Below, one piece after another: positions 10,601 through 58,369 of a stretch of 64,000 nucleotides of DNA. Under the pieces are notes generated by a model. That model made no database searches and had not been told where the DNA came from. It worked only from the letters and a program-made list of their open reading frames with translations. Both the position numbers and the translations under genes were made by a program. Each line of letters begins with the position of its first letter. Position 1 is the first letter of the stretch. The stretch is taken from the NCBI GenBank assembly GCA_000004985.1, contig GG738882.1; one strand, given 5' to 3'. The stretch is from Naegleria gruberi (lineage: Eukaryota).

Positions 10601-13600
10601 TGTAACTTCAAATTTGACTGTCTTGACAGTTTGCTCTTGAGAGAATGAGCTCTTTACTGTAACTTGAACCAAATAAGAACCAACACTAAGAGTTTCTGCT
10701 GTGAATGAAACACCAGAGCTAGTAACTGAAGCGAGGAGATTATCAACCTTTTCATCATCATCTGGGGTTGGAGCTTCAATGTTTGTCCAAGAGAAGAGAA
10801 GCTTTCTTCTATCCAAAGATACAGAACCAGATGCATCCAAATAGATACTACCACAAGCCTTTGAGATGGATGCCTTGTCAGTAGTCAATACAGCAGCAGG
10901 AGCAATACTTTGATATTCCTTCTTATTAACAAGAACATCTTCTGTTTCTTCACTATCAAGATAACTTCTGAACTTTAAGGTATCTCCAATATTAATTGTA
11001 GCCATAGAACCGAGGACAATTTGGAATACATTCTTTTCGTTAAAGATACAAACAGGATTGGATCCCAATGAATCAACATTGGCAATAACACTAGAACACT
11101 TGATTCTCTTCTTGATTGGTGTGAAAATTGTACCAACAATAGAGTCACCCTTTTCAGTGAAACCAAATGTTGTTTCATCAACCTTATAATCACACTTATC
11201 ACCGTACCAACCTGGTAAACAAGATTCACAGCTGGCACCAATTGAATTACCTTGACATGAGCATGTACCATCCTTATTACAAGTACCCTTTGAATTACAA
11301 TTAACTGAAGCAGAACAAGCAATTTGACAATTATCACCAACATAACCATCCTTACAAGTATTACAGAATTCTCCTACCCAATTGCTACCAGCACTACAGA
11401 CACACTTGAATTCAGAATTACAAGTACCATGACTATTACAAGTAAATTCATCAGAACATGTTCTTTCTAAACATCCTTCACCAGTGTATGCAGGAGTACA
11501 AATTGAACAATACTTTTGAGGGTCATAATTTCCACTACATGAACAAACACCGGATGAAATACATTTACCCTTAGAAGAACAAACAAATGAAGTGTTGGAA
11601 CGGTCAATACCATCACACTTAAAGTTTTGACAACTTGATCCATCATAACCATCATTACATTTACAAACTGGAACACCATTTTCAGCAACACAACTACCTC
11701 TACCACCACAAACACTCTTATCAGTTGCGGTAATACCATTACAAATTGCAATATCACATGTTGGACCAGTAAATCCATTCTTACATTTATCACAATAAGT
11801 ACCAGCAAAATTACCCAAACAAGAACAAGTATTTGGTGAAACACATTGACCACGGAATGAACAGCCACCTTCAGTTTCAGTCTTACCATTACAAGTTGGT
11901 GTAGAACAGTCATAACCTGAATAACCATTTTGACATTTACACAAGTTAGGAGAATCACAGGTACCCTTTGATGAACAAGCATCAGAAGCAGTACTTTCCT
12001 TTCCGTAACAGATTGGAGATTGACAATAACTTCCTGTATAACCTTGCTTACATGAACAAGTATCTTGATCAACACATGAACCCTTACCAGAACAAACTCC
12101 AGTTGCAGAGTATTCCTTTCCAAAACATGTAGTATTTGGTGGTAAATAACTGCCATAGTAACAATTTGAGGTTGGCAATGTGGAACAATCAGTTGTGAAC
12201 AAGTCAGGATGAGTAACTTCATTGTTGAGAATAATAGAGCAAACACCTGAACACCATTGCTTTTCTTCTGGAACACCCAAAGCTGAAGGATTACATGGAG
12301 TGAATGATTGATAGCACAAGAATTTCTTAATGGCTGCTTTACAATCGTCTCCACATTCAAGACCTCTACTCTCAACTTGTTTCAATACTTCAGAGTAGTT
12401 AGTACTGGTAGTTTGATCCAATTTCAACAAATTAGCAACAATCATGGTCTTGGCTTCAACGGCATTAGTGGCACCTACTGCAAAATTAGTATTCTTAATA
12501 CTGTACTTGACATGAGCCTTACAGAATGGAACGGATACAGATGGAGCAGAAATACAAGCTGGAGTGAGTGTGTAAATATTACATTCATCACCATAGTATT
12601 CTGGAGGACAAACACGCTTACATTTACCACTTGTCATTGAATAACCAGAAATACAAGATGAACATGGTTGACTAGTATTAGTAGTGAGATAGCCAGTGTT
12701 ACAGATACAAGTTGTAGTTGATGATGTAGTATCAACATATTGACATACACCTTGTCCACAACCATTCTTACAAACTGGATCAGTTCTTACACAGGTACCA
12801 AACTTGTTGACATAACCTGCTGATGTAGAACAAGAGCAACCAGTGGTTGCCTTGGAGAAACCTAACAATGAATTACAAACACAAACACCTGCCTTGGAAA
12901 GATAACCTTGAGTGGTATCACAATAGCATGATCCTTCATTGTCTGGCAAGTAACCCAAATCAGCATTACAGACACAAGCGTTTGAAACATTGACCAAACC
13001 AACTGGACAAGCAGTACATGGATTTGTACTGTCAACAGTGATAAACTTATTTCTACATTCACAATATCCAATAGTGGTATTAGTCTTGAAGAAACAATCA
13101 CCATTTGATCCACAATTCAAATCACACTTGACAAGAGGAGTAATACATTGACCATCCTTTAGAGTTAATCCTTCTTTACAGACACATCCTCCGGAAACTT
13201 CATCAGAAACAAATCCAAGTGAGCTATCACAGACACATTTTCCATCAGAGAGAACAAATCCAGATTTACACTTTTGACAATTTGAGCCAGCAAAGTTATT
13301 GAAACAATTACAGAGTTGGTTACCCTTAGCGTCCTTAGTACATTCACCATTAGCACCACAATTCAAAACGCATGGTTTAACTTCACAGAGTGAACCGCTA
13401 TAATTATCAGTACAATTACAATAGGCAGTTCCTGTTGTGTTGACACAAGTACCATGTTGACAATCGAGAGTACATGGAGCAATGGTACATTGAGTTCCCT
13501 TGAATCCTTGATAACAAGTGCAAGTATCAATTCCACTACAGCTTCCCATTCCTGAACAAACTGAAACATTATTCATTGAAATTCCGTAGCAGGTANNNNN

Positions 13601-16600
13601 NNNNNNNNNNNNNNNNNNNNNNNNNNNNNNNNNNNNNNNNNNNNNNNNNNNNNNNNNNNNNNNNNNNNNNNNNNNNNNNNNNNNNNNNNNNNNNNNNNNN
13701 NNNNNNNNNNNNNNNNNNNNNNNNNNNNNNNNNNNNNNNNNNNNNNNNNNNNNNNNNNNNNNNNNNNNNNNNNNNNNNNNNNNNNNNNNNNNNNNNNNNN
13801 NNNNNNNNNNNNNNNNNNNNNNNNNNNNNNNNNNNNNNNNNNNNNNNNNNNNNNNNNNNNNNNNNNNNNNNNNNNNNNNNNNNNNNNNNNNNNNNNNNNN
13901 NNNNNNNNNNNNNNNNNNNNNNNNNNNNNNNNNNNNNNNNNNNNNNNNNNNNNNNNNNNNNNNNNNNNNNNNNNNNNNNNNNNNNNNNNNNNNNNNNNNN
14001 NNNNNNNNNNNNNNNNNNNNNNNNNNNNNNNNNNNNNNNNNNNNNNNNNNNNNNNNNNNNNNNNNNNNNNNNNNNNNNNNNNNNNNNNNNNNNNNNNNNN
14101 NNNNNNNNNNNNNNNNNNNNNNNNNNNNNNNNNNNNNNNNNNNNNNNNNNNNNNNNNNNNNNNNNNNNNNNNNNNNNNNNNNNNNNNNNNNNNNNNNNNN
14201 NNNNNNNNNNNNNNNNNNNNNNNNNNNNNNNNNNNNNNNNNNNNNNNNNNNNNNNNNNNNNNNNNNNNNNNNNNNNNNNNNNNNNNNNNNNNNNNNNNNN
14301 NNNNNNNNNNNNNNNNNNNNNNNNNNNNNNNNNNNNNNNNNNNNNNNNNNNNNNNNNNNNNNNNNNNNNNNNNNNNNNNNNNNNNNNNNNNNNNNNNNNN
14401 NNNNNNNNNNNNNNNNNNNNNNNNNNNNNNNNNNNNNNNNNNNNNNNNNNNNNNNNNNNNNNNNNNNNNNNNNNNNNNNNNNNNNNNNNNNNNNNNNNNN
14501 NNNNNNNNNNNNNNNNNNNNNNNNNNNNNNNNNNNNNNNNNNNNNNNNNNNNNNNNNNNNNNNNNNNNNNNNNNNNNNNNNNNNNNNNNNNNNNNNNNNN
14601 NNNNNNNNNNNNNNNNNNNNNNNNNNNNNNNNNNNNNNNNNTTTGACAAGTACAATTATTTGGGGATGAGCAAAAACCTTTTCCTGAACAAACATTTCGA
14701 TCATTGTAGAGAGAAATTGAACAGTTGTGGAATTGACAATTCTCACCATAATATCCATCTTGACATGTACAATTATTTGGAAGTGCACATAAACCATGAC
14801 CACTACAAACCAATGAAGAAGTTGATGGAATAGAGGAACAGTTAAATAATTTACAAGTTTCTCCATAATAGTCCAATTGACATTCACACTTATTTGGTTG
14901 AGAACATTTACCATTACCAGAACAAGCTGATGAATCATCATAACGTACAGATGAACAATTATACAATTCACAATTATTTCCATAATAGCCTGCATTACAT
15001 TTACAAGTATCTAAATCAACACATGAACCATGGCTGGAACAAACATCTCTTGAATCAGCATAGGTGTTATCACAACTTGGAATTTCACAATTATTTCCCT
15101 TAAATCCACCGTTACACTCACAAACATCAATATCAGTACATTTACCATTACCACTACAAACCATAGTAGAATTTGATGGAACAGATTTACAATTATACAC
15201 TTCACATGACTTTCCATAATAACCACCCTCACAAGAACATTGATTTGGAGCAATACAAGGACCTCTTGATGAACATACAGAATTTTCATTCTTGTAAGTG
15301 CCATAACAATCAAATTGAGAACAATCCTTGCCATAGTATCCTTCTTTACATGAACATTGATCTGGAGCAATGCAGCTTCCCAAACCAGAACATACAAGTT
15401 TGTCATCTGAAACAATGCCGAAACACTTTGGTTTTTCACAAGCAGTACCAGAGTAGATTGCTTCAAAGGTAGAATTTCCAGATTGGAAGCAAACCTTTCC
15501 AGCATAATTGAACAATGCTAATACACCATCATTTTCAAGAACCAAAGTAAATGGATGACTAATTCCAGAGTCAGAACATGTTACAAATTTGTTAGGAGAG
15601 TATCTAACATCAGATCCATCTTTTGGTGATTCACCAATGAACAATAATTGACCAAGAGCTGAGACTTCAATACGAACATTATTAGCCTCAACATTCCATT
15701 CACTAACAACTTCTCCAGTTGAAACCTTCTTAATCTTGATGTAGGTTAATTCAACAAGGAGTACATATTGTCCATTATTAGAAACCAATGAAGAATTTCC
15801 ATTCACAGCCACAACATTCAAAGCACTTGAAATGAATGAATTGCTTGAATTGAAACCACCACAAGAACAAGTACTTGGTGAAACGCAGAAACCTTGTCCA
15901 GAGCAAACTTGGGCATCATTATTGAAAACGCCAGAACATGTAAAGACTGCACAGGATTCACCTTCAAAACCAGCTTTACAGGAACAATTGTTATGGGAAA
16001 GACACTTGCCATTTCCGCTACATGCAGAATTATCGAGTGAATTGACATTGAAACAGTCGAACTTTTCACATTGTTCACCATATTCATTGTTCAAACATTT
16101 ACAACTGTTCGGAGCTGTACAAACACCTTTACCTGAAGTACAAGCTTTGGAATCATCAAAGGAAAGACCGAAACATTCGTATTTTTCACATTTAACACCA
16201 TAATATCCTTCAGGGCAAGAACAATTATCTGGTGAAATACATGAACCAACTCTGGAGCATGGTGATTCACTGACAGAAATATTGTAACAATAGTAATTTT
16301 CACAACGATCTCCAGAATATCCTGGTTGACAAAGACACGAGTTAGGACTATCGCACACTCCATGGCCTGAACAAACAGTGCTATTGGAGCTTGAAAGAGC
16401 GTAACAATCATGGAATTGGCATTCAGGTCCATAATATCCGTCTAAACATTCACATTTTCCAGGTTGAGTACAGTTACCATTTCTAGAACAAGCATTGACA
16501 TCACCAGCAGCAAAGTTGTAACATTGTGGAATATTACAATTCGATCCACTATAATGCAAAGAGTCAGTTGAGTTGAATTCTACACTGGCAAAACAAACTG

Positions 16601-19600
16601 AACCCATAATATTGTAAACAACTAGGGAACCATCGTTTTGCAATACCATCCTGAATGGAGCAGTAGAAGAGCTACAAACAGGAACAAAATCTGGAACATA
16701 TTTGACAGCACTAGTAGTGTTATCCTTTTCTAAAATTCCGTTGAATGTAACGATGCCACTATTTGAAATTTCAATAGTGATATTATTGAATAGGAAATCC
16801 CACTTCTTAGCAACCACACCAGACATGGCATTTTCGATAGAAACAAAGTTAGTTCCAATCGAAAGCAAATACTTTCCATTGGCTGACTTTAAGGTTTGAC
16901 CTTCTTCCAAGACAATGCTGGAATGATTGGTTGAAATACTGTTATCAGCAGAGAGATCCAAACACAAACAAGTATCAATATCTTTACACAAACCTCTTCC
17001 TTCACAAACATTTGGATCACTATTCAAAACACCATTACACTTGTAATTATTACACATTTCGCCTTCATAAGATTTCTTACATTGACAAACGTTTGGAGAA
17101 ATACATTGACCAAAACCACTGCAAGTAGAAGGACTCTTTGAATCGACACCAAAGCAATCATATTTTTCACATTCAACACCATAGTATCCACTCTTGCATT
17201 TACAATTATTTGGACTCTTACATTCACCATTTAATGAACATGATTCATTGCTTGATTTACCATAACAGTAATAGGTTTCACACATCTGGCCAGAGTATCC
17301 TTCATGGCAAGAGCAATTATCATGAGCAATGCATTTACCAGACGAAGAGCAAACTGTTCCCTGCTCAGCATCAATATCAAAACAAGAGTAAATGGAACAA
17401 TCACTGCCTCCATATCCACTTTCACAAGAACAGTTATTAGGAGAAATACATGATCCTCTGGAGGAACATACAGAGCTGTCACTCATTAAAATACCATTAC
17501 AGTCATAGTGCTGACAATATGCTCCATAATATCCTTCTTCACATGAGCAATTATTAGATGAAGAGCACACACCATGTGATGAGCAAGCCATTGAGCTGTT
17601 AGAAAGTACTCCATAGCAAACTGGAATTTCACAAACAGCACCTCCATAGAGTTGACTGAATTGAGTTTGATTACTTGATTGATAACAAATATCACCTCTA
17701 GAATTGAACAATAACAATGTTCCTAAATCATCAAGAACCAATTTGTAATAAGAAGAAACTTTCCAATTCTTGCATTCTTCTGATTGGAATTGTCCAATAA
17801 TCAGAACGCCCCTATCACTAACATAAATGCTAGAAGCTTCCCAAGAGGAAATGACAGCACCATTACTAGTATCAACAATGATTGTAGAGTTTTCAGTGAT
17901 ATTCAATTGGAATTTTCCATTGGAAGAAATCAAAACTGATTCAAAAACTGATGTTGCATTATTTAGCAAGTAACTATTAGAGGAAGAAAGCCAATTACAT
18001 GAACATTCATCTTGAGCAACACAGAAGCCATGTCCAGAGCAAATATTACTATCATTATTAGCGATTCCACCACAAGAATATATTTCACAATTTTCACCAT
18101 AATAACCTGGTTGACATTTACAACTATTAGGGGCAGCACATTGTCCACGAGCTCCACAAACATCAGCCATTGATTTTTCAATACCACCACAATCATAGAA
18201 TTGACAATTATTTCCATAGTAACCATCTGCACATTCNNNNNNNNNNNNNNNNNNNNNNNNNNNNNNNNNNNNNNNNNNNNNNNNNNNNNNNNNNNNNNNN
18301 NNNNNNNNNNNNNNNNNNNNNNNNNNNNNNNNNNNNNNNNNNNNNNNNNNNNNNNNNNNNNNNNNNNNNNNNNNNNNNNNNNNNNNNNNNNNNNNNNNNN
18401 NNNNNNNNNNNNNNNNNNNNNNNNNNNNNNNNNNNNNNNNNNNNNNNNNNNNNNNNNNNNNNNNNNNNNNNNNNNNNNNNNNNNNNNNNNNNNNNNNACT
18501 TGTGGTACAGTAATAGAGTTCACAATTCAAACCTTGGTATCCATCTTTACATTTACATACATTTGGTTCAGAACAGTTACCCATTCCAGAACAAACACTT
18601 GGTTTCAATCTAGAAATACCATCACAATCAAAGATGTTACATTCATCTCCATAGTAGGATTGAGAACAAACACAGGTATCTGGAGCAACACATGAACCAC
18701 TTCCTGAACAAACCTTCGAATCATTGAATTCAATGCCATAACAGAGAGGAGTATTACAAATTTCACCACCATATTGAATCGTGAATTTTACATTTTCATC
18801 AGCATTGGTTTCAAAACAAATATCACCTACAGGTCCGTAAGTAATAAGTTTACCATTATTTTGAAGAACAAATCTATATGGATGACCAATTTGACTATTT
18901 GCACATTCTTGATTGAGGGTAACATTATCACCAAGAGAAAGAATACCCAAATCAGAAATTAGTAAAGCCAGTGAATCAGAACTATTTGTCTTGAATTCAT
19001 AAACAATAGAACCAGTAAGAGTATTTTCAACTCTTAAGGAATCAGTAGTGATGAAAGCTCTATAATTTCCATTATTGGAAACAATTGAAGTATTCATTGA
19101 GAGAACAAGATTGTTTTCCAATGATGAAATAATAGTATTGTTCTCAGAAGCATCAATGCAGGTACATGTGTCAATTGCAGAACAAATACCTCTTCTTGAA
19201 CAAACAGATGAATCAGTGTTTGGTAGTCCTTGACAGGTGAACGTCAAACATTGATCTCCAGTGTATCCAGCAGTGCAATTACAAGTATTTGGTGAAACAC
19301 ATGAACCGTGACGTCCACAGACTTCACTAGAGTTAAAGGCTATACCATAACAATCGTGGTTTTCACAATTATTGCCATAGTAACCATTTTGGCATTTACA
19401 ATTATTTGGAGCCACACATGATCCCATTCCAGAGCAAACATTTGATTCATTCTTGTGAATTCCGTCACATTCAAAATGTTCACACTCATTTCCGTAATAT
19501 CCATTCAAGCATGAACAATTGTTTGGAGCAGAACATGATCCAAATGAAGAACAAACTGTCGAAGCTTTCAAAATCTTTCCATAACAATCATAATTTTCAC

Positions 19601-22600
19601 AATTTTCACCATAATATCCATTTTGACATTGGCACTTATTTGGTTGAGAACATGAACCTTTTCCAGAACAAACTGAGGCATCTGAGAAGACAACTCCTGA
19701 ACATTTGTGATATTGACATTCAGCACCATAGTAACCTTCTTGGCATTCACAAGTGTTTGGAGCAACACAAGAACCAAATCCTGAACAAACATTTGTATCA
19801 TTTGGAAGTTTAGAATAACAAACTTGAGCATTACATTTTTCTCCACCATAGTATTGTGTAATATTTACACTTTCACCAGTACTTTCGAAACATTTAATAC
19901 CACTAGCAGAGTACAAAACCAAAGAACCATCATCAACCAATTGTAATCTGAAAGGATGATCAAAGATATTGCACTTTGTGTTATCATTCAAAGTGAATGA
20001 GGCTCCCTTAGATTCGTAGGTACGATTACCATAGACAGTAATGACACCTTGAGTTGAAATTTCCAATGTTTGATTAATCAAGGAAGTTCTCCATTGTGAA
20101 ACAATTCTTCCACTAACATGTTCAACTCTAAGGAATTCATAACCGAAGGATAATGCGTATTTTCCATTAGCTGAGGTGAGAGTGCTAATACCTTCCTCAA
20201 TAGCAACATTGGATTTAGCAGAACTCATAAATGTACTGTTTTCTGTAAAGTCTTTACAAGAACAAGTATTAATTGAGGAACATATACCACTTCCAGAACA
20301 AACCTCAGAGTCAATATTTTGAACACCAAAGCATTCATAAGCTTGACAAGCATTTCCAGAGTATCCGTTATTACATTGACAATTGTCAGGAGAAGTACAT
20401 TTACCAAAACCGCTACAAGCATCAGTAGAATTGAAAACTTGATTGAAACACTTGTACCATTCACAATTATTTCCATAGTACCCCTTATCACAAGTACAAG
20501 AATCTGGTTTCAAACATGAGCCCTTTCTTTTACAAACTGAGGATTCATTGAATGCAACTCCATAACATTCAAAATAGTCACAATTTACACCACTATAGCC
20601 ACTATTACATGAACATTTGTTTGCAGAATCACATGAACCGTTTCCAGAACAAGCTGATGTTTCGTTATATAATACTCCAAAACATTCATAGAGTTCACAA
20701 TTTGCTCCACTATATCCTTGTTGACAAGTGCAGTTATTGAGAGAAACACAATCACCTCTTCCAGAGCATACTGATGAATTGACATTAATAATTCCAGAAC
20801 AAGTGTGATATTGACATTTATCACCAGTAAATCCTTCAGCACAGTTACACTTATTGACTGCAATACAAGAACCACTTGAGCTACACACATACGGATTTGT
20901 AGCCATCAAACCATGGCAAACTGGAGCATCACAATTGATGCCTCTATAACCAGCATTGGCTGCATTAGAAATGGATGATTCACTATTGTTAGTAGACCAA
21001 CAAAGTCCACTTTCTGAAATCAGTTCTAAACCAAAATCACTCAAGAATAGTCTGACTGTGCCAGATTCAGTACAACTGGCAATTGTATCTGTTTTTTGAC
21101 TAGTTACAATAATGAGAGAGTTACCACTTAATCTTAAATTTGGTTGGGAATTGTATGACCATTGTTTTCTAACTTCCATAGTAGCTGTTTCAATAACAGA
21201 AACGTTATATTTACCAACAAGTAATTGTAAGATTTGGTTTGGTGATCTTAATGTGCTGTTTTCACTCAAAACAACATTGTCATTACTAGTAATAATTGAT
21301 TCAGGAGTAATGTCCATACAAACACAAGAATCTGGTGCTGAACATACACCCCTACCTCCACAAACACTTGTGGTATTACTCTTATTGATTCCATTACAAT
21401 AATAGGTATTACAATTGCTACCACTATATCCTTGTTGGCAGTTACATGTATCTGGAGAATTACATGAACCATGATTACTGCAAACTCCATTCGTATTATA
21501 AGGAATATTGAAGCAATTATAGCTTGAACATTGCTGACCATAATAATTATTATTACATTGACATTTTTCTGGAGATTGACATGCACCCCTACCTGAACAA
21601 ACAGTAGCAGTATTCTTGAAACTAGTTCCAAAGCAATTATAATTTTCACATTGTAAGCCATAATATCCTTGTTGACATACACAGTTATCAGGACTAGAAC
21701 AAGTACCCCTTGATGAACAAGCTGAAGAAGAAGAATGGGAAACACCATAACAGGAGAAAGTTTCACAATTAGGACCAGAATATCCAGTATTACAAGTGCA
21801 GTTATCTGGTGAAGTACATGATCCTTTTCCTGAACACACAGATGCATTAGTATATAACACTCCATTGCATGTGTATTTTTCGCAATCAATACCAGTGTAT
21901 CCTGTATTACATATACAGTTGGCATTTTTACATGATCCATGTTTAGAACACACTCCTATATTATTTTCTCCTAGTGTATTACAATAGAAATTGGTACACT
22001 CTGCCCCACCTACTGAGCTAAGCAAATTTTGGTATAAGGCAGTACAAATATTACCTAGAGGATTTGCTATAACCAAGTTACCAGTATTGTCAATTACTAG
22101 ATAGAATATAGATTTATCCTTGCAAGAATATACACTTGGAGCTGATGATGTAATTGCCACAGTTTCGTGATGTCTTAAAACGCTAGGATAATTATCCAAG
22201 TAGAGGTAACCATCATAGCTGTCTATTTGAAGTGCAATGCTTCCAAATTTTTCAAGAATTAATGCACCATTAGAGGTATATAATTTGTGTCTTCCATTAG
22301 GAGATATTAAGGAAATATCAGGTTTGCTAATTCTTCCTGGGTTAATTACGAATGAATTGGTTGAAGTAATCTTTGCTTTTGAACAGTCACATTCACCAGG
22401 AGAGACACAAAATCCATTTGAGCTACAAGAAGTATTTGAAGTGGACAATTCATTGTAACAATAATAGTCAGCACAAGTACTTCCACTATATCCAGCCTTA
22501 CAAACACAGTTATCTGGTGAAGTACAAGAACCATGGCCGGAACACACAGATGCATCACTGTTTAAAACGCCATCACATGTGAACTTTTCGCAATTAGTTC

Positions 22601-25600
22601 CAAAATAACCACCGCTACAAGTACAAGCTCCTTCTGAACAATTACCTTGACCTGAACAGACACTACGACTGGTCTCCAGTACTCCATTACATTTAGTCAA
22701 TTCACAATCTGTACCTGCATATACATTTAACACTGCAAGGTTGATTGCAGAACAAATATAAGATCCTTGATAAACAACCAAGTTTCCAGTATTTTCTAGT
22801 ACAAGCGTATATTGAGAATTACGATCACAAGAATAAGAAGTAGAAGTAAGAGAGGTAATAGTTAACTGTTGATGAACATCGGACAACACAAGCAAATGAT
22901 CAGAAACATATAAATATTTGTTGTCTGTAGCCTGCTTGAAAAGAAATTGTTGAATTGTTTCACCTTTTCGTTTCAAGTCAAAGGATTGAGTTCCTGATTG
23001 GAATTTGTATTTTTCATTTGTGGAAGTGAGTGCAAAATCTGAATACTGGTTACCATGGCTCATTTTGTAATGGTTTTGATTGACGCCACCTATTAGCTTT
23101 AGTGTGCTACATTCACATTTATCAATATCATAACATTGGCCATTACCTGAACATGAAAGAGGAGATGAGTAGAGAACTCCACTACAGTGGTAATCAGAAC
23201 ACCATGTGCCACTGTATCCTGTTTTACATGAACATGTATTCTTATCAATGCAAGAACCATGTCCTGAACACACACTAGTAGAGGTATTTAAAATGTTATT
23301 ACAAGTGTACAAGTGACATTCAATACCTCCTAACCCAGTTGGACAAGTGCAACTTTCTGTACTGTCACATTTTCCAATACCACCACAGACAGTAGGGTCT
23401 GAATGGTTCTTTCCATTGCAGTACCAATTGTCACAAGTAGGTCCCGAATATCCATATTGACAATGACAAGTATCAGGAGCAAAACAGTAACCTTTGCGAC
23501 TGCAAACAGAACTATCGCTGTTTGCCTTTCCGTGACAATAATAGGTTCCACAGGTGGTTCCAGTATAGTTTGCCTTACATGTACACACATTTGGAGTTAA
23601 GCATTCTCCATTTCCATTGCAGGCATTACCATTTGTATCGAGTGGACATTTTGTAATTTCACAATAATCTCCAAAATAGCCATCCTCACACTTGCAAGAA
23701 TTTACGCCAATGCAAGTACCACGCGAACTACAAACGGATGAATTTGTTGGAGAAATTCCATTGCATGTAAATGTTTCACAGTTTGATCCATTAACCAAAG
23801 ATTGTGTGGTACTTTCTGCAACGTAATAACTATCTTTTGTTGATGCATAACATTTACTTCCATATCTATCTCTTGTAACCAATTGACCATTATTTTCAAG
23901 ATTCACCGTAAATGGATATCCATAACATGGATAAGTTTCCACCGTGTAAGGCATGTTTCCATAATCACCCTCAAAAGTAGGTTTTCCCAAAGCATCCAAA
24001 AAAAGTTTTGTTGAATAGTAATTATTATATATCGCCCAAATAACAGATCCTGTTTTGAGATTATAAACAAATGCGTTAGAATAATTTGGGAAACTGAATT
24101 TGTATTTTCCATTTGGTGAATACAAGGCAACACCAGAAGAATCAACTTGGAAAAAGGAATCTGACTTTGACAATGCGTAAGTTCGGGATTTAGTAGGTAC
24201 ATCAGCACATTTACATGTATCATAGCTAGTACAATAACCTTGTCCAGAACAGACTGCAGATAAATTGGTAGCACTTACTCCAAAACATGTGTAATTTTCA
24301 CATGCAATTCCTGAATGACCAAAGTTGCATTGACAATTATTTGGAGAAACACATTTACCATTATAAGAACACGAAATTGGCAATGAACTGTCATAGCCGT
24401 TACAAGCAAACTTTTCACATCTAGTGCCACTATAACCAGCTGTACAATTACAAGTATTTGGAGCAATACATTGACCTCCAGATGAACAAACTGTTGAGGA
24501 ATTCCAAGCAATACCAAAACATGCTTGTATTTCACAAGATTCTCCAATGTGACCATCTTTACATTGACATGTGTTTGGTTTAGTACATGAACCTAATCCA
24601 GAACAAACTGAACTATCGTTATGCTCGTATCCAAAACAGTCAAAATATTCACAAACATCTCCATAGTAACCTGGCAAACATGAACAATTGTTTGGTGATG
24701 TACATTGTCCATGTGCTGAACATACCGAACTATTGGTAGAGAAAATATTATTACACTCATACTTTTCACATGTAATTCCATAATATCCAGGTTGACATTG
24801 GCAATTATCAGGTTCAACACAAGTACCATGAGATGAGCAAACCAAAGATGAATCAAATGGAGTACCATAACAATTTGAAAGTTGGCAATTATTTCCAAAA
24901 TAGGAGGAATTAAATGTACTGTTTGAACCAGTTGAGTAACAAACATGTCCAAGATGATAATTAACTAGCAAGAGATCACCATTATTAGTGAGAACAATTC
25001 TGAATGATCCTCCAGCACAGTCTATTTCTCCAAAGAGTTTAGAAGCACTTTCTTCAGTTGCATTTATGGAAATATAACCATAAACCAAAACAGTACCATT
25101 GGAATCAACTTCAATTCTTTGATTCCAAAGACCAGTTGACCAAGTTTTCATAATACTGTTTCCAGAAGTTATCATAATTTTGTTGTCTTGAATAATGAAT
25201 TGATATTTTCCATTAAGGGAATACAATTCACTGCCGTTCATCATTACAGTAGAATTACCATCAAAATAGAATGAATTTCTCGATACAAAATCAAAACAGG
25301 TACACTTATTTGGAGAAATGCAAACACCCTTTCCAGAACAAACATTTTCATCGTTTCTATTCAAACCATCACATTCGAATTCAGTGCAATTATCTCCGTA
25401 ATATCCTGTATTACATTGACAAGTATCAACTGCAATACATGAGGCAAAAGCTGGACAAGCATCAGGTGAGAATCTCGAAATACCGTTACATGCCCATTCT
25501 TGACAATTACTACCAGAATATCCTGGCTTACATTCACAGTTATCAACATGAGTACAATTACCAAAACCAGAACAAACCATACTCGAATTTGCACTCACTC

Positions 25601-28600
25601 CAAAACAAGTATCAAATTCACAAAAGTTTCCAGTGCGATTACTGAAACAATTACATTCATTCGGTCCAACACATTCACCATTTGAAGAACAATTTCCAGA
25701 GCAGGTAAATTGGTCACAATTCAATCCAGTCCATCCTTCCTTACATTCACATGTTGGTGGAGATTGAGTACCCTCATTGGTGAGACATTTGCCATTACCA
25801 GAACAAACTCGAGGAGAATTGAAAGTAATTCCAAAACAGCCTAAAACTGCACACTCCTCGCCAGCATAATATCCTTTACATTGACAGGTGTTTGGTGAAG
25901 TACAAGAGCCATTTCCTGAACAAACACTTGAATTATCGTGAGCAATACCAAAGCATTCAAACATTTCACAAATGTGTCCCCTGTATTCTGAATTACATTT
26001 ACATGTATTTGGTGAAACACATTTACCTTTTCCAGAACAAACACTTGAATCGCTCTTATAAATCCCATAACAAGCAAACTTTTCACAAAGGTCTCCATAA
26101 TAGGTTGAATTACATTGACACTTCTTTGGACCAACACAAATTCCCTGTTGATTACATTCAGATGTAAATTGAGCAGAATCAAAACATTCAAATTTTTCAC
26201 AATTAGAACCAAAAGCTCCTTCAACACATGAACAAGTTTCAGGGGCTACACAATTTCCATTGCCACTACACACACTAGAATTTGAGGAAAGAATACCATT
26301 ACACTTAAACTCATTACAAGCACCAAACAGATACTTGTAAGTGCTATTGACAGAGATGGTATAACAGAGCACATTGGCTGATGTGTAAACTGCCAAATCA
26401 CCTGTATCTTGGAGAACGACAGTAAATTGGCCTCCTTCACAAGTTTGATCAGTAATTGGTGTTGATATGACATTGACTGTGGAATTTCCATCTTCTTCAA
26501 TGGTAACATTTGAAAAAGTCAATTCTAATTGACCATTGGCAGATATTTTCAATTCTGCTTCGGAACTTTCAGAATTTACTTGATACAACAATTCATTGGT
26601 CTTGACATTCATAATGGAAAAGTTGCCTTGATTCATTGTTGCCTTATAAATTCCATAGGTTGAGGAGAGTGAACTGTTTGAAGAAAGAACAATTCCTCCT
26701 GTAGTGGCAATCTTGAAATTATCAGAACTAATCTCTCCAATACATTGACATTCATCAACGCCCACACAAATTCCCTTTCCAGAACACACCTTCTTGTTAT
26801 TACTCAAAATACCATAGCATGTGAAATCTGAACAATTATCACCAGTGAACCCAGTATTGCATTGACACTTATTTGGACCAATACATTTACCATTCCCACT
26901 ACAAACGTTGGAAGAAGAAGGATCGATATCATTACATGCAATATATTCACAATTTGTACCATTAGCTCCAGCAGCACAATGACATGTATCATTTGCGACA
27001 CAAACACCATTACCAGAACAGACCAAAGAAATGTTTGCGCTTGGAATACCTGCACAGTAAATAGGTGGTTCTTCACTTTGGGTAGAATTGGATGTATCTA
27101 TGAAGGTGGAATTATCAGTTGATGTTCCATTGTTTTCAGAACTAGTTGAATTATTATCAATCAAAGTACTGTTATCAACGAGTGTGCCATTTTCAACTTT
27201 TGTACTATTATCAGAGATAGTACTGTTATCAACAAGCGTGGAATTATCAGTCAAAGTACTATTGTCTGTTAAGGTACTGTTATTATCATCACTAGGTAAA
27301 GTTTCATTACCACCAGGTACAGTACTATTGTTATCAACTTGTGTACTATTATCATTTGTAAGAGTACTATTATCAAAAATAGTGGAATTTTCATTCAAGG
27401 TACTGTTATCACTAATGACTGTTTCATTACCACTTGGTAATGTACTGTTATTAATGAGTGTGACATTTTCAACTTGTGTGCTGTTATCAACAGTTGTTTC
27501 GTTAGCATCTGATACTGTACTATTATCAACTTGTGTACTATTATCAGAGATAGTACTGTTATCAACCAGAGTGGAATTATCAGTCAAAGTGCTATTATCT
27601 ATCAAAGTACTATTATCAACTTGTGTACTATTATCATTTGTAAGAGTACTATTATCATAAATAGTGGTGTTTTCATTCAAGGTACTGTTATCACTAATGA
27701 CTGTTTCATTACCGCTTGGTAATGTACTGTTATCAATTAAAGTACTGTTTTCAGCAAGAGTTGAATTTTCTCCTTTTGGCAAAGTTTCATTATCAAAGGA
27801 AGTAGTATTATCAACAGTTGTTTCATTACCACTTGGTAAAGTACTGTTATCAACGAGAGTGCCATTTTCAACTTTTGTGCTATTATCAGAGATAGTACTG
27901 TTATCAACCAGAGTGGAATTATCAATCAAACTACTATTGTCTGCTAAGGTACTGTTGTCTGCAAGCGTAGAATTATCCTCAGTTGGCAAAGTTTCATTAT
28001 CAAAAGAAGTGCTATTTTCAGCAATTGTTTCATTAGGCATTTGATGCTGTACTATTATCTATCAAAGTACTGTTATCAATGAGTGTGCCATTTTCAACTT
28101 GTGTGCTGTTATCAATTAAAGTGCTGTTATCAACAAGAGTTGAATTATCTCCCTTTGACAAAGTTTCATTACCAAATGAAGTGCTGTTATCAACAGTTGT
28201 TTCGTTAGCATCTGATGCTGTATTATTGTCAATCAAAGTACTGTTATTTTCAACGAGTGTACTATTATCACCAGGTAAAGTCTCATTACCATCTGGTAAT
28301 GTACTATTATCAGCCAAAGTACTGTTATTTTCAACTTGTGTACTATTATCAGAGATTGTACTATTATCAACAAAAGTTGAATTATCAATCAAAGTACTAT
28401 TATCTATCAAAGTACTGTTATTATCATCACTAGGTAAAGTTTCATTACCACCAGGTACAGTACTATTGTTATCAATTAAAGTACTGTTTTCTGCTAGAGT
28501 GGAATTTTCTCCTTTTGGCAATGTTTCATTATCAAAGGAAGTAGTATTATCAACCGTTGTTTCAATACCTCCTGGTAAGGTACTATTATCAACAATTGTT

Positions 28601-29691
28601 TCATTACCGCTTGGTATAGTTTCATTTGCATCTGATGCTGTACTATTATCCATAACTGTAGTATTAGAATCGTTTGATCCTTCAACAGTTGAGTTCTTTT
28701 CATCTGAGGATACACCGTTATCATTTAAGGTACTATTATCAGCAAGAGTGGAATTATCAATTAAAGTAGTGTTATCAAGCAGCGTACTATTGTCAAATTG
28801 TGTGCTATTATCAGAGATAGTACTGTTATCAACCAGAGTGGAATTATCAGTCAAAGTACTGTTGTCTGCTATGGTACTGTTGTCTGCAAGCGTAGAATTT
28901 TCCTCAGTTGGCAAAGTTGCATTATCAAAAGAAGTACTATTATCAACCAAAGTACTGTTATTTTCAGCAATTGTTTCATTAGCATTTGATGTTGTATTAT
29001 TATCCATAACCGAAGTAGTATTATTGGAATCGTTTGATCCCTCAATGGTAGAGTTCTTTTCATCTGAGGATACACCATTATCAACCAAAGTACTGTTATC
29101 AACGAGTGTGCCATTATTGTCATAGAGAGTACTGTTATCAAGAGTTGAATTATCAATCAATGTACTATTATCTATCAGAGTACTGTTATCAGCAAGTGTA
29201 GAATTTTCCTCAGTTGGCAAAGTTGCATTATCAAAAGAAGTACTATTATCAACCAAAGTACTGTTATCAACAAGCGTGCTGTTGTCAACAACAGAAAGAG
29301 TACTATTGTCCTCTTGTGTGATATTATTGGAAGAATCAACAGAAGGTGAATTAACAACAAGCAAATCACTACAAGTTGGACCTCCATATCCATCGTTACA
29401 TGTCTCACATATTCCAGTCTCGACGTTACAACTGCCATGCTCACATATTCCATTCACATCTGTACAATTCTCTTGGCAATAAGTAGAGTTGTAAGCATAG
29501 TAAGACTCTGCACAAGCGCAATTTGCAGCTCCGCAATCACCCTTACACAATGGGTCAGTAGGGCATGAACTTAATGCAACATCATTGTCAGCCTTAATAA
29601 AAGTAATCAAGGCAAAGAAGAAGAGCAAAACTACAAGCAAAACTGCTCTCTTCTCCAGCAAGATGGTTAATTTCATTTTTTTTACAGTCAA
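7619..29691 (-). CDS. Giant surface glycoprotein gene (~22 kb, ~7,000 aa) interrupted by assembly gaps and two apparent 1-bp frameshifts
   Basis: Three minus-strand ORFs are contiguous: 28033..29691, 13569..28040 and 7619..14995. (1) Signal peptide 'MKLTILLEKRAVLLVVLLFFFALITFIKA'. (2) Cys-rich N-terminal module 'CPTDPLCKGDCGAANCACAESYY...CETCNDGYGGPTC'. (3) About 750 aa of 'DNSTL/V/I' NxS/T pentapeptide repeats (27080-29340). (4) At least 11 units of a ~110-aa bulb-type (B_lectin/comitin-like) module followed by 5-9 EGF repeats of ~32 aa ('C.G......VCSG.G.C..PN.C.C..GY.G..CE.F.C'). Example lectin module: '...LYSLNGKYQFIIQDNKIMITSGN...IVLTNNGDLLLVNY'. This part spans ~14642-27075. (5) After the gap: EGF/Cys-rich region, a Cys-rich 'LECGDDCKAAIKKFLCYQSFTPCNP...' module, and ~600 aa of beta-rich repeats resembling PKD/REJ modules. 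(6) Thr-rich stalk 'TNTTSVTNTTTVTNTTTVSNNTS'. (7) TM helix 'IGVSVTLVVLVLIATAGVVVIVAI' followed by 'RKKK'. (8) Acidic tail. The ORFs join through a 1-bp indel at ~28035 and are split by N-runs. Confidence 0.8.
13597..14641. other. Assembly gap (N-run, ~1045 nt) inside the giant gene
   Basis: Run of n. ORFs 13573..14655(-) and 13576..14646(+), translated as X, are gap artefacts. Confidence 0.99.
14642..27075 (-). repeat. Tandem coding array of tenascin-type EGF repeats (~96 bp) punctuated by bulb-lectin-like modules
   Basis: Regular Cys spacing in the translation. At least 11 lectin-like modules each carry 'NGKY' and 'NNG(D/N)L(V/L)' motifs typical of beta-prism II lectins. The array is interrupted by the N-run at 18237-18497. 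Confidence 0.75.
18237..18497. other. Assembly gap (N-run, 261 nt) inside the giant gene, in frame as sized
   Basis: Run of n. It is 87 codons, so the ORF continues through it. Confidence 0.99.
27080..29340 (-). repeat. Coding minisatellite: 15-bp (pentapeptide 'DNSTL') N-glycosylation-sequon repeat array, ~2.2 kb
   Basis: On the plus strand, 'agtact(a/g)tt(a/g)tcaac'-type 15-mers are reiterated about 150 times. The translation is '...DNSTLVDNSTLIDNSTLTDNSTISDNSTQVDNSTL...' with occasional 'PSGNETL'. Confidence 0.85.
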
Positions 29692-38796: not shown

Positions 38797-39162
38797 TTTT
38801 TAATTAAATTGAAATATGATGATTCTTCGACTGGCGATGCTGATGAAATATTGCGAGTCAATCAAAATGCTGTATGGAATGAAACTTCCTCTTCAATTTG
38901 AACTCGGATATGAAATAGCTTCAGCCACAATATTGAATTTAAATTGATTAACAATAACCCATGCAAATTTACACCAAAAACTAGAATATTCGATGAGAAT
39001 TTTTATTTTGTTTTGAATTTTAAAAAAATGTTCGTTAGATAGCGCGGCAATTTGTTGCTAGTATTCAATTATGCTTCTTGAATCATCAAGTGGAGACACA
39101 ATTAATAGGAAAATCACATAAAACATAAAACATCACATGACTGCAAAAACAATTAGAACAAG

Positions 39163-40272
39163 ATGAAGATAGGCTACGTTGGTATGAATAGGGCACTCAA
39201 ATTAACAACCTCCAATACAACCCGATTGAATAATGTTTCTCCAAAGAAGATTAAAGAAAAATTGCTAGTTAATATTGATCACTTGAAAAAGATGCTCAAG
39301 TGGAATGTTCAGAAGAATTTGCTCTTCTTTAGAATTGGAAGTGAATTTGTGCCATTTGCTAGTCATGAAAAGGTTCGGGATGAAGAATTCAAGCAAGAAT
39401 TTAATTGGATTGAGGAATGCGAAGATGATCTAAAGGAGATTGGAAAGTTTGTAAAGGAAAATAATATTAGAATTAGCATGCACCCTGATCAATTTGTATT
39501 GATTAATTCACCTGATATGGAAATATTCAATAGATCCTATGAAGAATTGAACTATCACGCTCAATTGATGAATACTATGGGATTAGATACCACTCATAAA
39601 TTCCAAATACATTTGGGTGGAAAGTATGATGACAAGAGAAAGTCAATGCAAAGATTTGTTGATCGATACAAGAATAATTTGAATGATGCTATCAGGGCTC
39701 GATGTGTATTGGAAAATGATGATAGAATTTATAGTTTGGAAGATGTGTATTGGATACATCAACAATGTGGCATTCCAATTCTCTTTGATACATTGCATCA
39801 TGAATGTTTGAATTCAAATGGTGACTCTTTAGAAGTGGCATTCAAGAAAGCTGCTAGTACTTGGGATCCGGTTAAGGATGGTGTTCCTCTTATTGACTAT
39901 TCAGATCAAGAACCAGGTGCACGTATTGGAAATCATAGAAAGAGCATTGAATTGAAGCATTTCAAGAAGGTAATTTGTGACAAGTTAATGAAATGCAAGA
40001 ACGATGATGGAGAATTTATTGAATTTGATGTCATGTTGGAAATCAAGGATAAGGACGCTAGTGCCATTAAGATCTTACCAGTCTTTTTAAAAGGTGTTGA
40101 GGATAGAGAAAAGGATCCAGAACCAACTGAGGATGACAATCAAGAAGATTTAAAAGTCCAAGTATTAGAGGAAGATGAGGACGAAGCAGTATCGAGTGAG
40201 GAAGAAAAACCAAAGAAGAGAAAGAAGGCACCAACCAAGAAGGCATCCACTACCAAGAGAAAGAAAAAATAA
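39163..40272 (+). CDS. uvdE: UV damage endonuclease (UvdE/Uve1 family) with a Lys-rich, NLS-like C-terminal tail
   Basis: 'MKIGYVGMNRAL...NLLFFRIGSEFVPFASH...IRISMHPDQFVLINSP...LNYHAQLM...FQIHLGGKYDDK...RCVLENDDRIYSLEDV...CGIPILFDTLHH' matches conserved UvdE blocks. These are GyvsiN, fRisSdlfPfash, iRlSmHPdqF, LeyHa, vviHlGG and LvLENDDk. The tail is '...KPKKRKKAPTKKASTTKRKKK'. Confidence 0.85.
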   Translation: MKIGYVGMNRALKLTTSNTTRLNNVSPKKIKEKLLVNIDHLKKMLKWNVQKNLLFFRIGSEFVPFASHEKVRDEEFKQEFNWIEECEDDLKEIGKFVKENNIRISMHPDQFVLINSPDMEIFNRSYEELNYHAQLMNTMGLDTTHKFQIHLGGKYDDKRKSMQRFVDRYKNNLNDAIRARCVLENDDRIYSLEDVYWIHQQCGIPILFDTLHHECLNSNGDSLEVAFKKAASTWDPVKDGVPLIDYSDQEPGARIGNHRKSIELKHFKKVICDKLMKCKNDDGEFIEFDVMLEIKDKDASAIKILPVFLKGVEDREKDPEPTEDDNQEDLKVQVLEEDEDEAVSSEEEKPKKRKKAPTKKASTTKRKKK

Positions 40273-40400
40273 ACCAACACTCAATATTTCAATAACAAGG
40301 ATTTCTCACGTTCTTATTTGGTGGTTGTGTAAAGATAGGGGTGTTTGACATGATATGGACACGATGCCCTTTTGATCTGTTGAGTGAACCGACAGAAAAA

Positions 40401-58319: not shown

Positions 58320-58369
58320 NNNNNNNNNNNNNNNNNNNNNNNNNNNNNNNNNNNNNNNNNNNNNNNNNN
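58320..58369. other. Assembly gap (50 N)
   Basis: Run of n. Confidence 0.99.

What the first reader, a model, noticed from the sequence alone, without database searches (positions are those of the whole stretch)
27080..29340. About 2.2 kb coding minisatellite of 'DNSTL' pentapeptides: roughly 150 consecutive N-glycosylation sequons
The extracellular N-terminal region of the giant protein is almost entirely a 15-bp repeat encoding NxS/T sequons ('DNSTLVDNSTLIDNST...'). Such a dense N-glycan array is unusual and should be hypervariable in length between strains by replication slippage.
Basis: seen in the sequence. Interest (0 to 1): 0.6.

Follow-up and report, generated by a model that had tools for sequence, protein, structure and literature searches.

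The report
Dense N-glycosylation-site array in Naegleria giant protein
A 2.3-kb stretch near the start of an unannotated, roughly 7,300-residue surface-protein gene of the amoeba Naegleria gruberi encodes about 114 closely spaced N-glycosylation sites, most likely a sugar-coated spacer; it is unusual in size but not a new principle.

Summary
The repeat is real, coding (minus strand, 27075-29358) and far beyond chance, but the description needs correction. The unit is 18 bp, a hexapeptide L-x-D-N-S-T, not 15 bp. There are 114 distinct sequons (125 counting overlaps), not about 150. The units are degenerate: adjacent units are about 50% identical in DNA. A one-base insertion at 28036/28037 breaks the reading frame in this draft assembly.

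The window is Naegleria gruberi. The array follows a signal peptide and a small Cys-rich cap. It precedes about 68 EGF-like motifs, 11 beta-prism-II lectin-like modules, a REJ domain, one transmembrane helix and a tail. This is a type I protein of about 7,300 residues with no public gene model.

Asn and the +2 Thr are the best-kept positions (113 NxT against 12 NxS; shuffles give 24 and 22). Synonymous codon variation is abundant. Selection therefore acts on the sequon, and the best reading is a heavily N-glycosylated, acidic, mucin-like stalk.

Hypervariability by slippage is not supported. A minority rival is a left-handed beta-helix (Pfam Hexapep hit above threshold; low-confidence AlphaFold model). 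Glycosylation and expression are untested.

The parts
7619..29676 (-). Inferred single giant gene: about 7,350 codons including about 436 codons hidden in two N-gaps. It encodes a type I membrane protein. No public gene model was found.
   Evidence: Open frames run on both sides of the gaps with continuous EGF architecture. Three homology searches gave best identities of 49%, 43% and weak low-complexity hits only. That the gene is one unit across the gaps is an inference.
29590..29676 (-). Signal peptide MKLTILLEKRAVLLVVLLFFFALITFIKA.
   Evidence: Read directly from the sequence. The Kyte-Doolittle 15-residue mean reaches 3.25. No dedicated signal-peptide predictor was available.
29359..29589 (-). 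N-terminal Cys-rich cap domain of about 77 aa, with 14 Cys.
   Evidence: Translation. No Pfam hit to this segment.
27075..29358 (-). Sequon array: 761 aa of degenerate L-x-D-N-S-T hexapeptides with 114 distinct N-x-S/T sites. It is acidic (131 D+E against 7 K+R) and contains no Cys, Trp, His or Arg.
28036..28037 (-). One-base insertion: an extra C on the coding strand, GG on the + strand. It shifts the frame and creates TAA and TGA stops at 28030-28035.
   Evidence: Three-frame translation. Alignment with four paralogous copies, all of which lack the base. No 3n+1 intron with a canonical donor spans it.
14642..27074 (-). Ectodomain body: at least 56 teneurin- or tenascin-type EGF motifs interrupted by 11 modules of about 140 aa. 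An assembly gap lies at 18237-18497.
   Evidence: Pfam EGF_2, EGF_TEN and EGF_Teneurin, with E-values down to 2e-104. Motif count. Module list.
16530..16970 (-). Example of the 11 inter-EGF modules, predicted to have a beta-prism II (GNA or bulb-lectin-like) fold.
   Evidence: AlphaFold2 on the alignment of the 11 copies gave pLDDT 82.4 and pTM 0.76. Foldseek against PDB hit mannose lectins 4pdt (E 1.9e-4) and 1xd6 (TMt 0.72). Pfam B_lectin scored only 15 bits against a cut-off of 32.4.
13596..14641 (.). Assembly gap (1046 N) inside the gene. The frame differs on the two sides, as expected for an arbitrary gap length.
9347..10153 (-). REJ domain (best Pfam stretch).
   Evidence: PF02010, E 4.2e-39, 134.8 bits. 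Coordinates.
8201..8356 (-). Second, short hexapeptide sequon array next to the membrane (TNTTxV units, about 11 sequons).
   Evidence: TRF period 18. Translation.
8030..8101 (-). Single transmembrane helix IGVSVTLVVLVLIATAGVVVIVAI, followed by RKKK and a cytoplasmic tail of about 135 aa that ends at the stop codon at 7619.
   Evidence: Translation.

Best explanation
The array is the membrane-distal stalk of a giant type I surface glycoprotein of Naegleria gruberi.

Proposed mechanism:
1. As the chain enters the ER, oligosaccharyltransferase meets an N-x-T site every 6-8 residues and loads most of them with N-glycans.
2. The resulting 761-residue segment is acidic, Cys-free and glycan-crowded. 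It behaves like a mucin domain built on N-linked rather than O-linked sugars: extended, hydrated and protease-shielded.
3. It holds the small N-terminal Cys-rich cap away from the EGF and lectin-like body, and contributes to the cell's glycocalyx and to adhesion or anti-adhesion.

Shown here: the anatomy, the topology signals, the excess and NxT bias of sequons, and protein-level selection on the sequon.

Inferred: occupancy by glycans, the extended conformation, the function, and that the frameshift is a sequencing error or a single-allele lesion.
For: Topology:
- Signal peptide, then array, then EGF arrays, REJ domain, one TM helix and a tail.

Sequon excess and bias:
- 125 sequons against 46 +/- 5 in shuffles.
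- NxT 113 against 24 +/- 4 expected, while NxS is depleted (12 against 22 +/- 4), although Ser and Thr are equally abundant.
- The rest of the same protein has 2.3 sequons per 100 aa with NxT:NxS of 43:52. The bias is therefore specific to the array.
- 125 of 139 Asn lie in sequons.

Conservation profile:
- In in-phase hexads, the +2 Thr (3.97 bits) and the -1 Asp/Glu (2.8 bits) are far better conserved than the hydrophobic positions (1.48 and 1.09 bits). Asn is the anchor used to define the hexads.
- The sequon's middle residue varies (S, E, N, T, G, A) and is never Pro.

Protein-level selection:
- Synonymous diversity is high. Asn uses AAT 83 and AAC 38. Thr uses ACT 59, ACA 37, ACC 9 and ACG 5. 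The middle Ser uses both AGY (60) and TCN (17). Leu uses TTR 38 and CTN 24.

Literature:
- N. gruberi has an essentially complete Alg/OST pathway (PMC4973528).
- In human cells the STT3A complex can modify even adjacent NXT sites, while closely spaced NXS sites are incompletely modified; yeast OST handles closely spaced sites less well (PMC6761772, citing Shrimal and Gilmore 2013).

Structure and parallels:
- AlphaFold2 gives no confident fold for 318 aa of the array (pLDDT 42).
- Shorter tandem sequon linkers occur in unrelated surface proteins: Haliotis 'mucin-12-like' (PGNTTFV)n and a Thaumarchaeota MAG protein (PGGNQT[IV])n.

Assembly:
- The longest exact internal repeat is 70 nt. From my own knowledge, the published N. 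gruberi assembly is Sanger-based with much longer reads; if so, the array is not a collapse artefact.
Against: - There are no expression, proteomic or glycan data.
- The assembled gene carries a frameshift inside the array and has no gene model in public databases.
- OST occupancy at 6-residue spacing over more than 100 sites has never been shown. N. gruberi OST preferences are unknown.
- The repeat also matches the hexapeptide motif of left-handed beta-helices, with Pfam Hexapep at 33.1 and 29.8 bits against a cut-off of 27. Its best library and PDB matches are such proteins.
- Single-sequence AlphaFold is a weak test of disorder.
Confidence: 0.6

Rival explanations
1. The array folds, at least in segments, as a left-handed parallel beta-helix. 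This is the hexapeptide-repeat fold, with 18 residues per turn. Leu would sit at the interior position i and Ser at the interior position i+4. Asp, Asn and Thr would sit at corners or outer faces. The result would be a rigid rod about 20 nm long, with or without glycans on the exposed Asn ladder.
For: - Pfam Hexapep PF00132 scores above its gathering threshold in both halves: 33.1 and 29.8 bits against 27. LbH_EIF2B scores 42.9 bits, below its cut-off of 54.
- The top hits among 1.84 billion representatives (best E 5e-12) are bacterial Hexapep or YdcK-solenoid proteins with xDNSx hexads.
- The best four of the nine PDB sequence hits are LbH proteins or ubiquitin; six of the nine are LbH proteins (LpxA 4r36, LpxD 4e75, gamma-carbonic anhydrases, an acyltransferase, YdcK). 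None is significant, at E 0.05-0.8.
- The consensus L-x-D-N-S-T differs from the common bacterial hexad I-G-D-N-S-T mainly at i+1.
- The AlphaFold model, although low-confidence, places short strands about 18-19 residues apart.
Against: - pLDDT is 42 and pTM 0.36. No Foldseek hit reaches E<=0.001.
- Position i is aliphatic in only about 55-60% of units, and Gly at i+1 is absent.
- Glu occupies the would-be interior i+4 position in 15 units (14 GAA + 1 GAG, in N-E-T).
- 43 of 113 inter-sequon intervals depart from the 6-residue phase, 35 of them at 7-8 residues. The longest in-phase run is 10 hexads. 16 units carry Pro.
- The best-conserved positions are those of the sequon, not those of the helix core.
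- Stacking about 130 acidic side chains at 4.8 A would be strongly repulsive (inference).
Confidence: 0.17
2. The locus is a recently inactivated pseudogene or a null allele. The frameshift is real, translation stops after residue 547, and the array as a 761-aa unit is not made in this strain.
For: - There is a one-base insertion relative to four paralogous copies, followed directly by TAA and TGA.
- No intron with a canonical donor can restore the frame.
- No gene model or near-identical protein fragment for any of three parts of the gene exists in a collection of 5.8 billion clusters. The neighbouring UvdE gene is present in that collection from NCBI, Logan and ENA.
Against: - Downstream of the shift the frame stays open to the assembly gap at 14641, about 4,200 determined codons plus one 87-codon N-gap, in a 34% GC genome. 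Intact EGF, lectin-like, REJ and TM features follow. Any inactivation is therefore very recent, or the base is an error.
- This is a draft assembly with three N-gaps in the window.
- Missing gene models are expected when a gene spans gaps and a frameshift.
Confidence: 0.15
3. The array is an assembly artefact, a mis-joined or mis-sized repeat.
For: - This is a draft assembly with gaps.
- The region is repetitive and contains an apparent indel.
Against: - Units are divergent. The longest exact internal repeat is 70 nt, and higher-order copies are 80-91% identical, so long reads can place them uniquely.
- The reading frame, codon usage and higher-order structure are coherent across 2.3 kb.
Confidence: 0.03

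Closest known systems
Mucin (PTS) tandem-repeat domains of metazoan and protist surface proteins
   Same: Both are extracellular, low-complexity tandem repeats packed with glycan acceptor residues (34% Ser+Thr here). The presumed role is an extended, hydrated, protease-resistant stalk or brush on a very large membrane protein.
   Different: - The acceptor logic here is the N-x-T sequon (N-linked) with a strict 6-8 residue spacing.
- Pro is scarce (17 of 761).
- The segment is strongly acidic.
- There is no sequence homology.
Chlamydomonas FMG1B/FMG1A ciliary glycocalyx protein
   Same: It is a giant (4,389 aa) membrane-anchored protist surface protein forming the outer coat. [quoted passage not shown]
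   Different: - FMG1B is a chain of 34 folded Ig-like repeats with 25 confirmed N-glycosites.
- The Naegleria array has about 114 sequons in 761 aa of low-complexity sequence.
- The domain content differs: EGF, beta-prism II and REJ here.
- Homology between the two was not tested.
Short tandem sequon linkers seen in database proteins: Haliotis asinina 'mucin-12-like' XP_067660319.1 (PGNTTFV)n and Thaumarchaeota MAG MBI2938153.1 (PGGNQT[IV])n
   Same: Both use the same design principle, one N-x-T per short repeat unit between folded extracellular domains.
   Different: - These are heptapeptide, Pro/Gly-containing, near-neutral units.
- They carry 34-40 sequons per protein against 114 here.
- The sequences are unrelated, so the resemblance is convergent.
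Hexapeptide-repeat left-handed beta-helix proteins (Pfam PF00132; LpxA, LpxD, gamma-carbonic anhydrase, YdcK)
   Same: They share the six-residue period, a hexad close to I-G-D-N-S-T, and a Pfam hit above threshold.
   Different: - Those proteins are cytoplasmic bacterial or organellar enzymes with invariant aliphatic and Gly positions and an unbroken phase.
- Here the sequon positions are the conserved ones, the phase breaks often, and no confident fold is predicted.
Polycystin-1 / sea-urchin REJ family (for the whole protein)
   Same: Both are very large ectodomains with a REJ domain close to the membrane.
   Different: - No GPS/GAIN or PLAT hit was found, and there is a single TM helix.
- The closest relatives are Naegleria EGF+REJ paralogues at 40-49% identity. 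In their annotated parts these lack the sequon array.

Membership tests
Coding minisatellite, hypervariable by replication slippage | Head-to-tail units of 10-60 bp | tested here: met
   The period is 18 bp (not 15). Self-identity is 0.50 at lag 18.
Coding minisatellite, hypervariable by replication slippage | High identity between neighbouring units, which provides the substrate for slippage | tested here: not met
   Mean identity to the next unit is 0.50. The longest exact run at lag 18 is 14 nt. TRF reports only short sub-arrays at 67-83% matches.
Coding minisatellite, hypervariable by replication slippage | Length polymorphism between isolates | not testable with these tools
   No second assembly of this locus could be retrieved. 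Exact-protein look-ups failed.
Mucin-like glycodomain (functional class) | Secretory-pathway or extracellular location | tested here: met
   N-terminal signal peptide, single C-terminal TM helix, EGF and REJ ectodomain.
Mucin-like glycodomain (functional class) | Tandem repeats saturated with glycan acceptor sites | tested here: met
   114 distinct sequons in 761 aa, 2.7 times the shuffle expectation.
Mucin-like glycodomain (functional class) | Pro/Thr/Ser-rich O-glycosylation repeats | tested here: not met
   Pro is 2.2% of residues. The conserved motif is N-x-T, not a PTS repeat.
Mucin-like glycodomain (functional class) | Demonstrated dense glycosylation | not testable with these tools
   This needs PNGase F or Endo H treatment, lectin blots or glycoproteomics.
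Left-handed beta-helix hexapeptide repeat (PF00132) | Profile match above the curated threshold | tested here: met
   33.1 and 29.8 bits against a cut-off of 27.
Left-handed beta-helix hexapeptide repeat (PF00132) | Conserved aliphatic residue at i and Gly or a small residue at i+1 | tested here: not met
   Position i is L/I/V in about 55-60% of units. Position i+1 is V, I, A, S or P and never a conserved Gly.
Left-handed beta-helix hexapeptide repeat (PF00132) | Long uninterrupted 6-residue phase | tested here: inconclusive
   The longest run is 10 hexads. 43 of 113 intervals depart from 6 residues, 35 of them at 7-8 residues.
Left-handed beta-helix hexapeptide repeat (PF00132) | Beta-helix fold | tested here: inconclusive
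   Single-sequence AlphaFold2 gave pLDDT 42 and pTM 0.36. Foldseek found no hit at E<=0.001.
Polycystin-1 / REJ family (whole protein) | REJ domain | tested here: met
   PF02010, E 4.2e-39.
Polycystin-1 / REJ family (whole protein) | GPS/GAIN cleavage module, PLAT domain and multi-pass membrane region | tested here: not met
   No such Pfam hits at E<=0.01. One hydrophobic helix is visible.
Bulb-type (GNA) mannose-binding lectin, beta-prism II (the 11 inter-EGF modules) | Beta-prism II fold | tested here: met
   The model has pLDDT 82. Foldseek hit 4pdt at E 1.9e-4 and 1xd6 at TMt 0.72, probability 1.0.
Bulb-type (GNA) mannose-binding lectin, beta-prism II (the 11 inter-EGF modules) | Pfam B_lectin match and intact QxDxNxVxY mannose-binding motifs | tested here: not met
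   B_lectin scores 15.2 bits against a cut-off of 32.4. The motifs are degenerate, for example QNDGSLVVY and ENTGNLVVY.

The most novel reading that the evidence does not exclude
The array is a secreted, N-glycosylated left-handed beta-helix. The L-x-D-N-S-T hexads would stack three per turn, so that Asn-linked glycans form three continuous ladders along a rigid rod. A eukaryotic 'glyco-rod' of this kind has no described precedent. A metagenomic ORF found in passing combines invariant I-G core positions with a kept N-x-T and a signal-like N-terminus (L045, I-G-x-N-[STC]-T hexads, 91 sequons). It hints that such a combination may exist.

A second unexcluded idea: the high-mannose glycans of the array could be ligands for the protein's own 11 GNA-like modules, giving homotypic cross-linking of the coat.
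Probability: 0.08. Interest if true: 0.8.

Novelty: new variant of a known kind. Interest (0 to 1): 0.4.

Why it matters
If it is glycosylated as predicted, this would be one of the longest and densest natural arrays of N-glycosylation sites. It would carry about 15 sites per 100 residues over 761 residues.

- It would serve as a natural test substrate for how oligosaccharyltransferase copes with sites 6 residues apart.
- It would be a clear case of a mucin-like stalk built from N-linked rather than O-linked sugars in a free-living amoeba.
- It flags an unannotated surface-protein gene of about 22 kb in the N. gruberi reference. The gene has lectin-like and REJ modules and may matter for prey or substrate adhesion.

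The practical correction is that the array is old and degenerate. It should not be expected to behave as a hypervariable typing marker.

Tried and rejected
1. 15-bp pentapeptide period. Rejected by autocorrelation and TRF. The only 15-bp array, FGNNT x4, is in a different gene.
2. Plus-strand ORFs 27088-27660 and 28079-29125. These are antisense by-products of the repeat. The minus frame is continuous with the signal peptide and with Pfam EGF domains.
3. Intron bypass of the frameshift. There are 56 GT..AG pairs of length 3n+1, none with a canonical donor.
4. Exact-protein look-ups of the upstream ORF and of neighbouring ORFs, to find a second copy of the locus. Nothing was on record except UvdE.
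5. Charge-hydropathy (Uversky) classification. It misclassified the control LbH and sequon repeats, so it was not used.
6. Foldseek on the low-confidence model of the array. No hit reached E<=0.001. The best non-significant matches were right-handed beta-helices, including hyperglycosylated TibA 4q1q.
7. Metagenome scans.
   - A strict pattern, DNSTLx x3 with AGY Ser codons, gave 0 hits.
   - A looser pattern, D-N-x-T-x-x x4, gave 119 stretches. Most are short arrays, and the longest ORFs carry 91 and 50 sequons. None was a relative of the Naegleria protein.
8. Literature searches for Naegleria N-glycans, REJ domains and tandem sequon repeats found nothing specific to this protein.


Full report
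**1. What is in the sequence**

The region reads as a repeat only on the minus strand. An ORF starts at the ATG at 29676 with MKLTILLEKRAVLLVVLLFFFALITFIKA. It continues through a 14-Cys domain of about 77 aa and then enters a long run of ...DNSTLVDNSTLVDNSTSFDNATLPTEENSTLADNSTLIDNST....

At about 28037 this frame hits TAA TGA. The same repeat continues without interruption in the +1 frame and runs on into EGF-like domains. I aligned the junction with four paralogous copies of the same higher-order unit. The assembled sequence has one extra C on the coding strand: GCATCAAATGCCTAATGAAACA against ...ATG-CTAATGAAACA.

With that base removed, the array spans residues 107-867, which is 761 aa at window 27075-29358.

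**2. Period, count and chance**

*Period.* Tandem Repeats Finder reports only periods of 18, 21 and 39 bp inside the region, as short sub-arrays with 67-83% matches. The sole 15-bp array of the window is in another gene, at 43530-43588. DNA self-identity peaks at lag 18 (0.50). It is 0.44 at lag 36 and 0.37 at lag 15. An EGF-coding control gives 0.33 at lag 18. The unit is therefore a hexapeptide.

*Count.* There are 125 N-x-S/T matches. This falls to 114 when overlapping NNST sites are merged. Spacing is 6 residues 70 times, 7 residues 26 times and 8 residues 9 times. The longest strictly in-phase run is 10 units.

*Composition.* The array has N 139, T 134, S 124, D 89 and L 64. There are 131 acidic residues against 7 basic ones. 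Cys, Trp, His and Arg are absent.

*Chance.* Shuffling the residues gives 46 +/- 5 sequons, with a maximum of 65 in 5000 shuffles. It gives equal numbers of NxT (24) and NxS (22). The observed values are 113 and 12.

**3. Evidence that the sequon is the selected feature**

- 125 of 139 Asn residues lie in sequons.
- In in-phase hexads, the +2 Thr carries 3.97 bits and the -1 Asp/Glu 2.8 bits. The two hydrophobic positions carry only 1.48 and 1.09 bits. Asn is the anchor used to define the hexads, so its own score is not informative.
- The middle residue of the sequon varies (S, E, N, T, G, A) and is never Pro.
- Synonymous variation is abundant. Asn uses AAT 83 and AAC 38. Thr uses four codons. 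The middle Ser uses both the AGY (60) and TCN (17) families. Leu uses TTR 38 and CTN 24.
- The rest of the same protein has 2.3 sequons per 100 aa with no NxT preference (43:52).

Together these show an old, protein-coding array under purifying selection for N-x-T. In human cells, NXT sites are modified even when adjacent, whereas closely spaced NXS sites are incompletely modified (PMC6761772). N. gruberi encodes an essentially complete Alg/OST pathway (PMC4973528).

**4. DNA-level structure and the slippage claim**

Adjacent 18-bp units are on average 50% identical. The longest exact match at lag 18 is 14 nt.

On top of this sit segmental duplications of 100-184 bp at 80-91% identity, at spacings such as 282, 306 and 360 bp. 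The longest exact internal repeat is 70 nt, at lag 306.

This is a poor substrate for replication slippage. Only occasional unequal recombination between higher-order copies is plausible. The same divergence makes an assembly collapse unlikely.

**5. Organism and gene**

*Organism.* The neighbouring UvdE ORF (39163-40272) is identical to N. gruberi XP_002674735.1 / EFC41991.1. An independent Logan contig from ERR1078381 matches 39003-40346 with 2 mismatches. The window is a draft assembly with N-gaps at 13596-14641, 18237-18497 and 58320-58369.

*Gene architecture.* Downstream of the array the frame stays open to the assembly gap at 14641, about 4,200 determined codons plus one 87-codon N-gap. 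It resumes after the 1046-N gap in another frame, as expected for an arbitrary gap size. In order, the protein has:

- at least 56 plus 12 EGF-like motifs, with Pfam EGF_2, EGF_TEN and EGF_Teneurin hits down to E 2e-104;
- a REJ domain (E 4.2e-39);
- a second short sequon array, TNTTxV, at 8201-8356;
- one TM helix at 8030-8101;
- a tail of about 135 aa.

*Lectin-like modules.* Eleven inter-EGF modules of about 140 aa, aligned with each other, give a confident AlphaFold model (pLDDT 82.4). It matches beta-prism II mannose lectins: 4pdt at E 1.9e-4 and 1xd6 at TMt 0.72. Pfam B_lectin stays below threshold, and the QxDxNxVxY motifs are degenerate.

*Size and annotation.* The inferred protein is about 7,350 codons including about 436 hidden in gaps. 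That it is one gene across the gaps is an inference. None of three searches with different parts of it found a near-identical protein in 5.8 billion clusters. The best hits were 49% identity to an N. gruberi paralogue, 43% to Acrasis kona, and only weak low-complexity hits for the N-terminus. The gene therefore appears to be unannotated. The paralogues lack the array in their annotated parts.

**6. How unusual is it?**

HMMER against 1.84 billion representatives found 89 proteins at E<=1e-3. The best was 5.3e-12, and none fell below 1e-30. They fall into two kinds.

- Bacterial or phage hexapeptide-repeat (Hexapep or YdcK-solenoid) proteins with xDNSx hexads.
- A handful of sequon-rich linkers, such as Haliotis 'mucin-12-like' (PGNTTFV)n, a Thaumarchaeota MAG protein (PGGNQT[IV])n, and metagenomic proteins with 49-67 sequons.

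A DNA pattern scan of 241 million metagenome records gave no match to three DNSTLx units with AGY Ser codons. A looser four-unit pattern gave 119 stretches, mostly short arrays.

Tandem sequon arrays are thus a recurrent, convergent device. The Naegleria array is about twice as rich as the sequon-rich linkers I inspected.

**7. The beta-helix alternative**

*For.*
- Pfam Hexapep scores above its gathering threshold in both halves of the array: 33.1 and 29.8 bits against 27.
- Six of the nine best PDB sequence hits, all non-significant, are left-handed beta-helix proteins.
- The consensus L-x-D-N-S-T is one position away from the bacterial I-G-D-N-S-T.

*Against.*
- Single-sequence AlphaFold gives pLDDT 42 and pTM 0.36. 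Foldseek finds no hit at E<=0.001.
- The core positions are the least conserved.
- Glu sits at the would-be interior position in 15 units.
- The phase breaks in 43 of 113 intervals.
- The net charge is about -124.

I keep this rival at about 0.17.

**8. Verdict**

It is wrong about the unit, the count and the expected slippage hypervariability.

The most likely function is a heavily N-glycosylated, acidic, mucin-like stalk on a giant surface protein. The nearest described concept is the N-glycosylated 'mucin' FMG1B of Chlamydomonas, which is built quite differently: 34 folded repeats with 25 confirmed sites.

Glycosylation, expression and the reality of the frameshift remain untested.

Noticed in passing
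window 8201-8356 (-): The same giant gene has a second, short hexapeptide sequon array (NTTEITNTTSVTNTTTVTNTTTVSNNTSVTNTTTVSNNTSTTNTTSPTNSTV) directly outside the transmembrane helix. Both ends of the ectodomain therefore carry N-x-T repeats.
   Followed up: partly
window 43191-45032 (+), repeat at 43530-43588: A 613-aa ORF with no Pfam hit and a hydrophobic C-terminus carries a 15-bp repeat encoding FGNNT x4, again N-x-T sequons. Short sequon repeats may be a recurring feature of N. gruberi surface proteins.
   Followed up: partly
window 15432-26750 (-), e.g. 16530-16970: Eleven modules of about 140 aa between the EGF arrays are predicted to adopt the beta-prism II (snowdrop or GNA mannose-lectin) fold. 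They fall below the Pfam B_lectin threshold and have degenerate sugar-binding motifs. They might bind the protein's own high-mannose glycans.
   Followed up: partly
window 7619-29676 (-): The whole gene of about 22 kb appears to have no protein model in public collections, although the flanking UvdE gene is annotated. This is probably because the gene spans two assembly gaps and a frameshift.
   Followed up: yes
L045 (metagenome contig JGI24217J29970_1027787), + strand, match at 1539-1603: An 819-aa ORF consists almost entirely of I-G-x-N-[S/T/C]-T hexads, with 91 sequons, after a signal-peptide-like N-terminus. It keeps both the beta-helix core positions (I, G) and N-x-T, so it is a candidate for a secreted, possibly glycosylated, left-handed beta-helix.
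   Followed up: partly
window 2012-3127 (+): An ORF with RI-type leucine-rich repeats (Pfam LRR_6, E 2.6e-40) and only a weak, sub-threshold F-box hit (14.7 bits against a 20.5 cut-off). It is built from nested 72-, 144- and 288-bp DNA repeats.
   Followed up: no
window 13596-14641, 18237-18497, 58320-58369: There are runs of N (assembly gaps). Two lie inside the giant gene, so its true length and domain count are unknown.
   Followed up: yes
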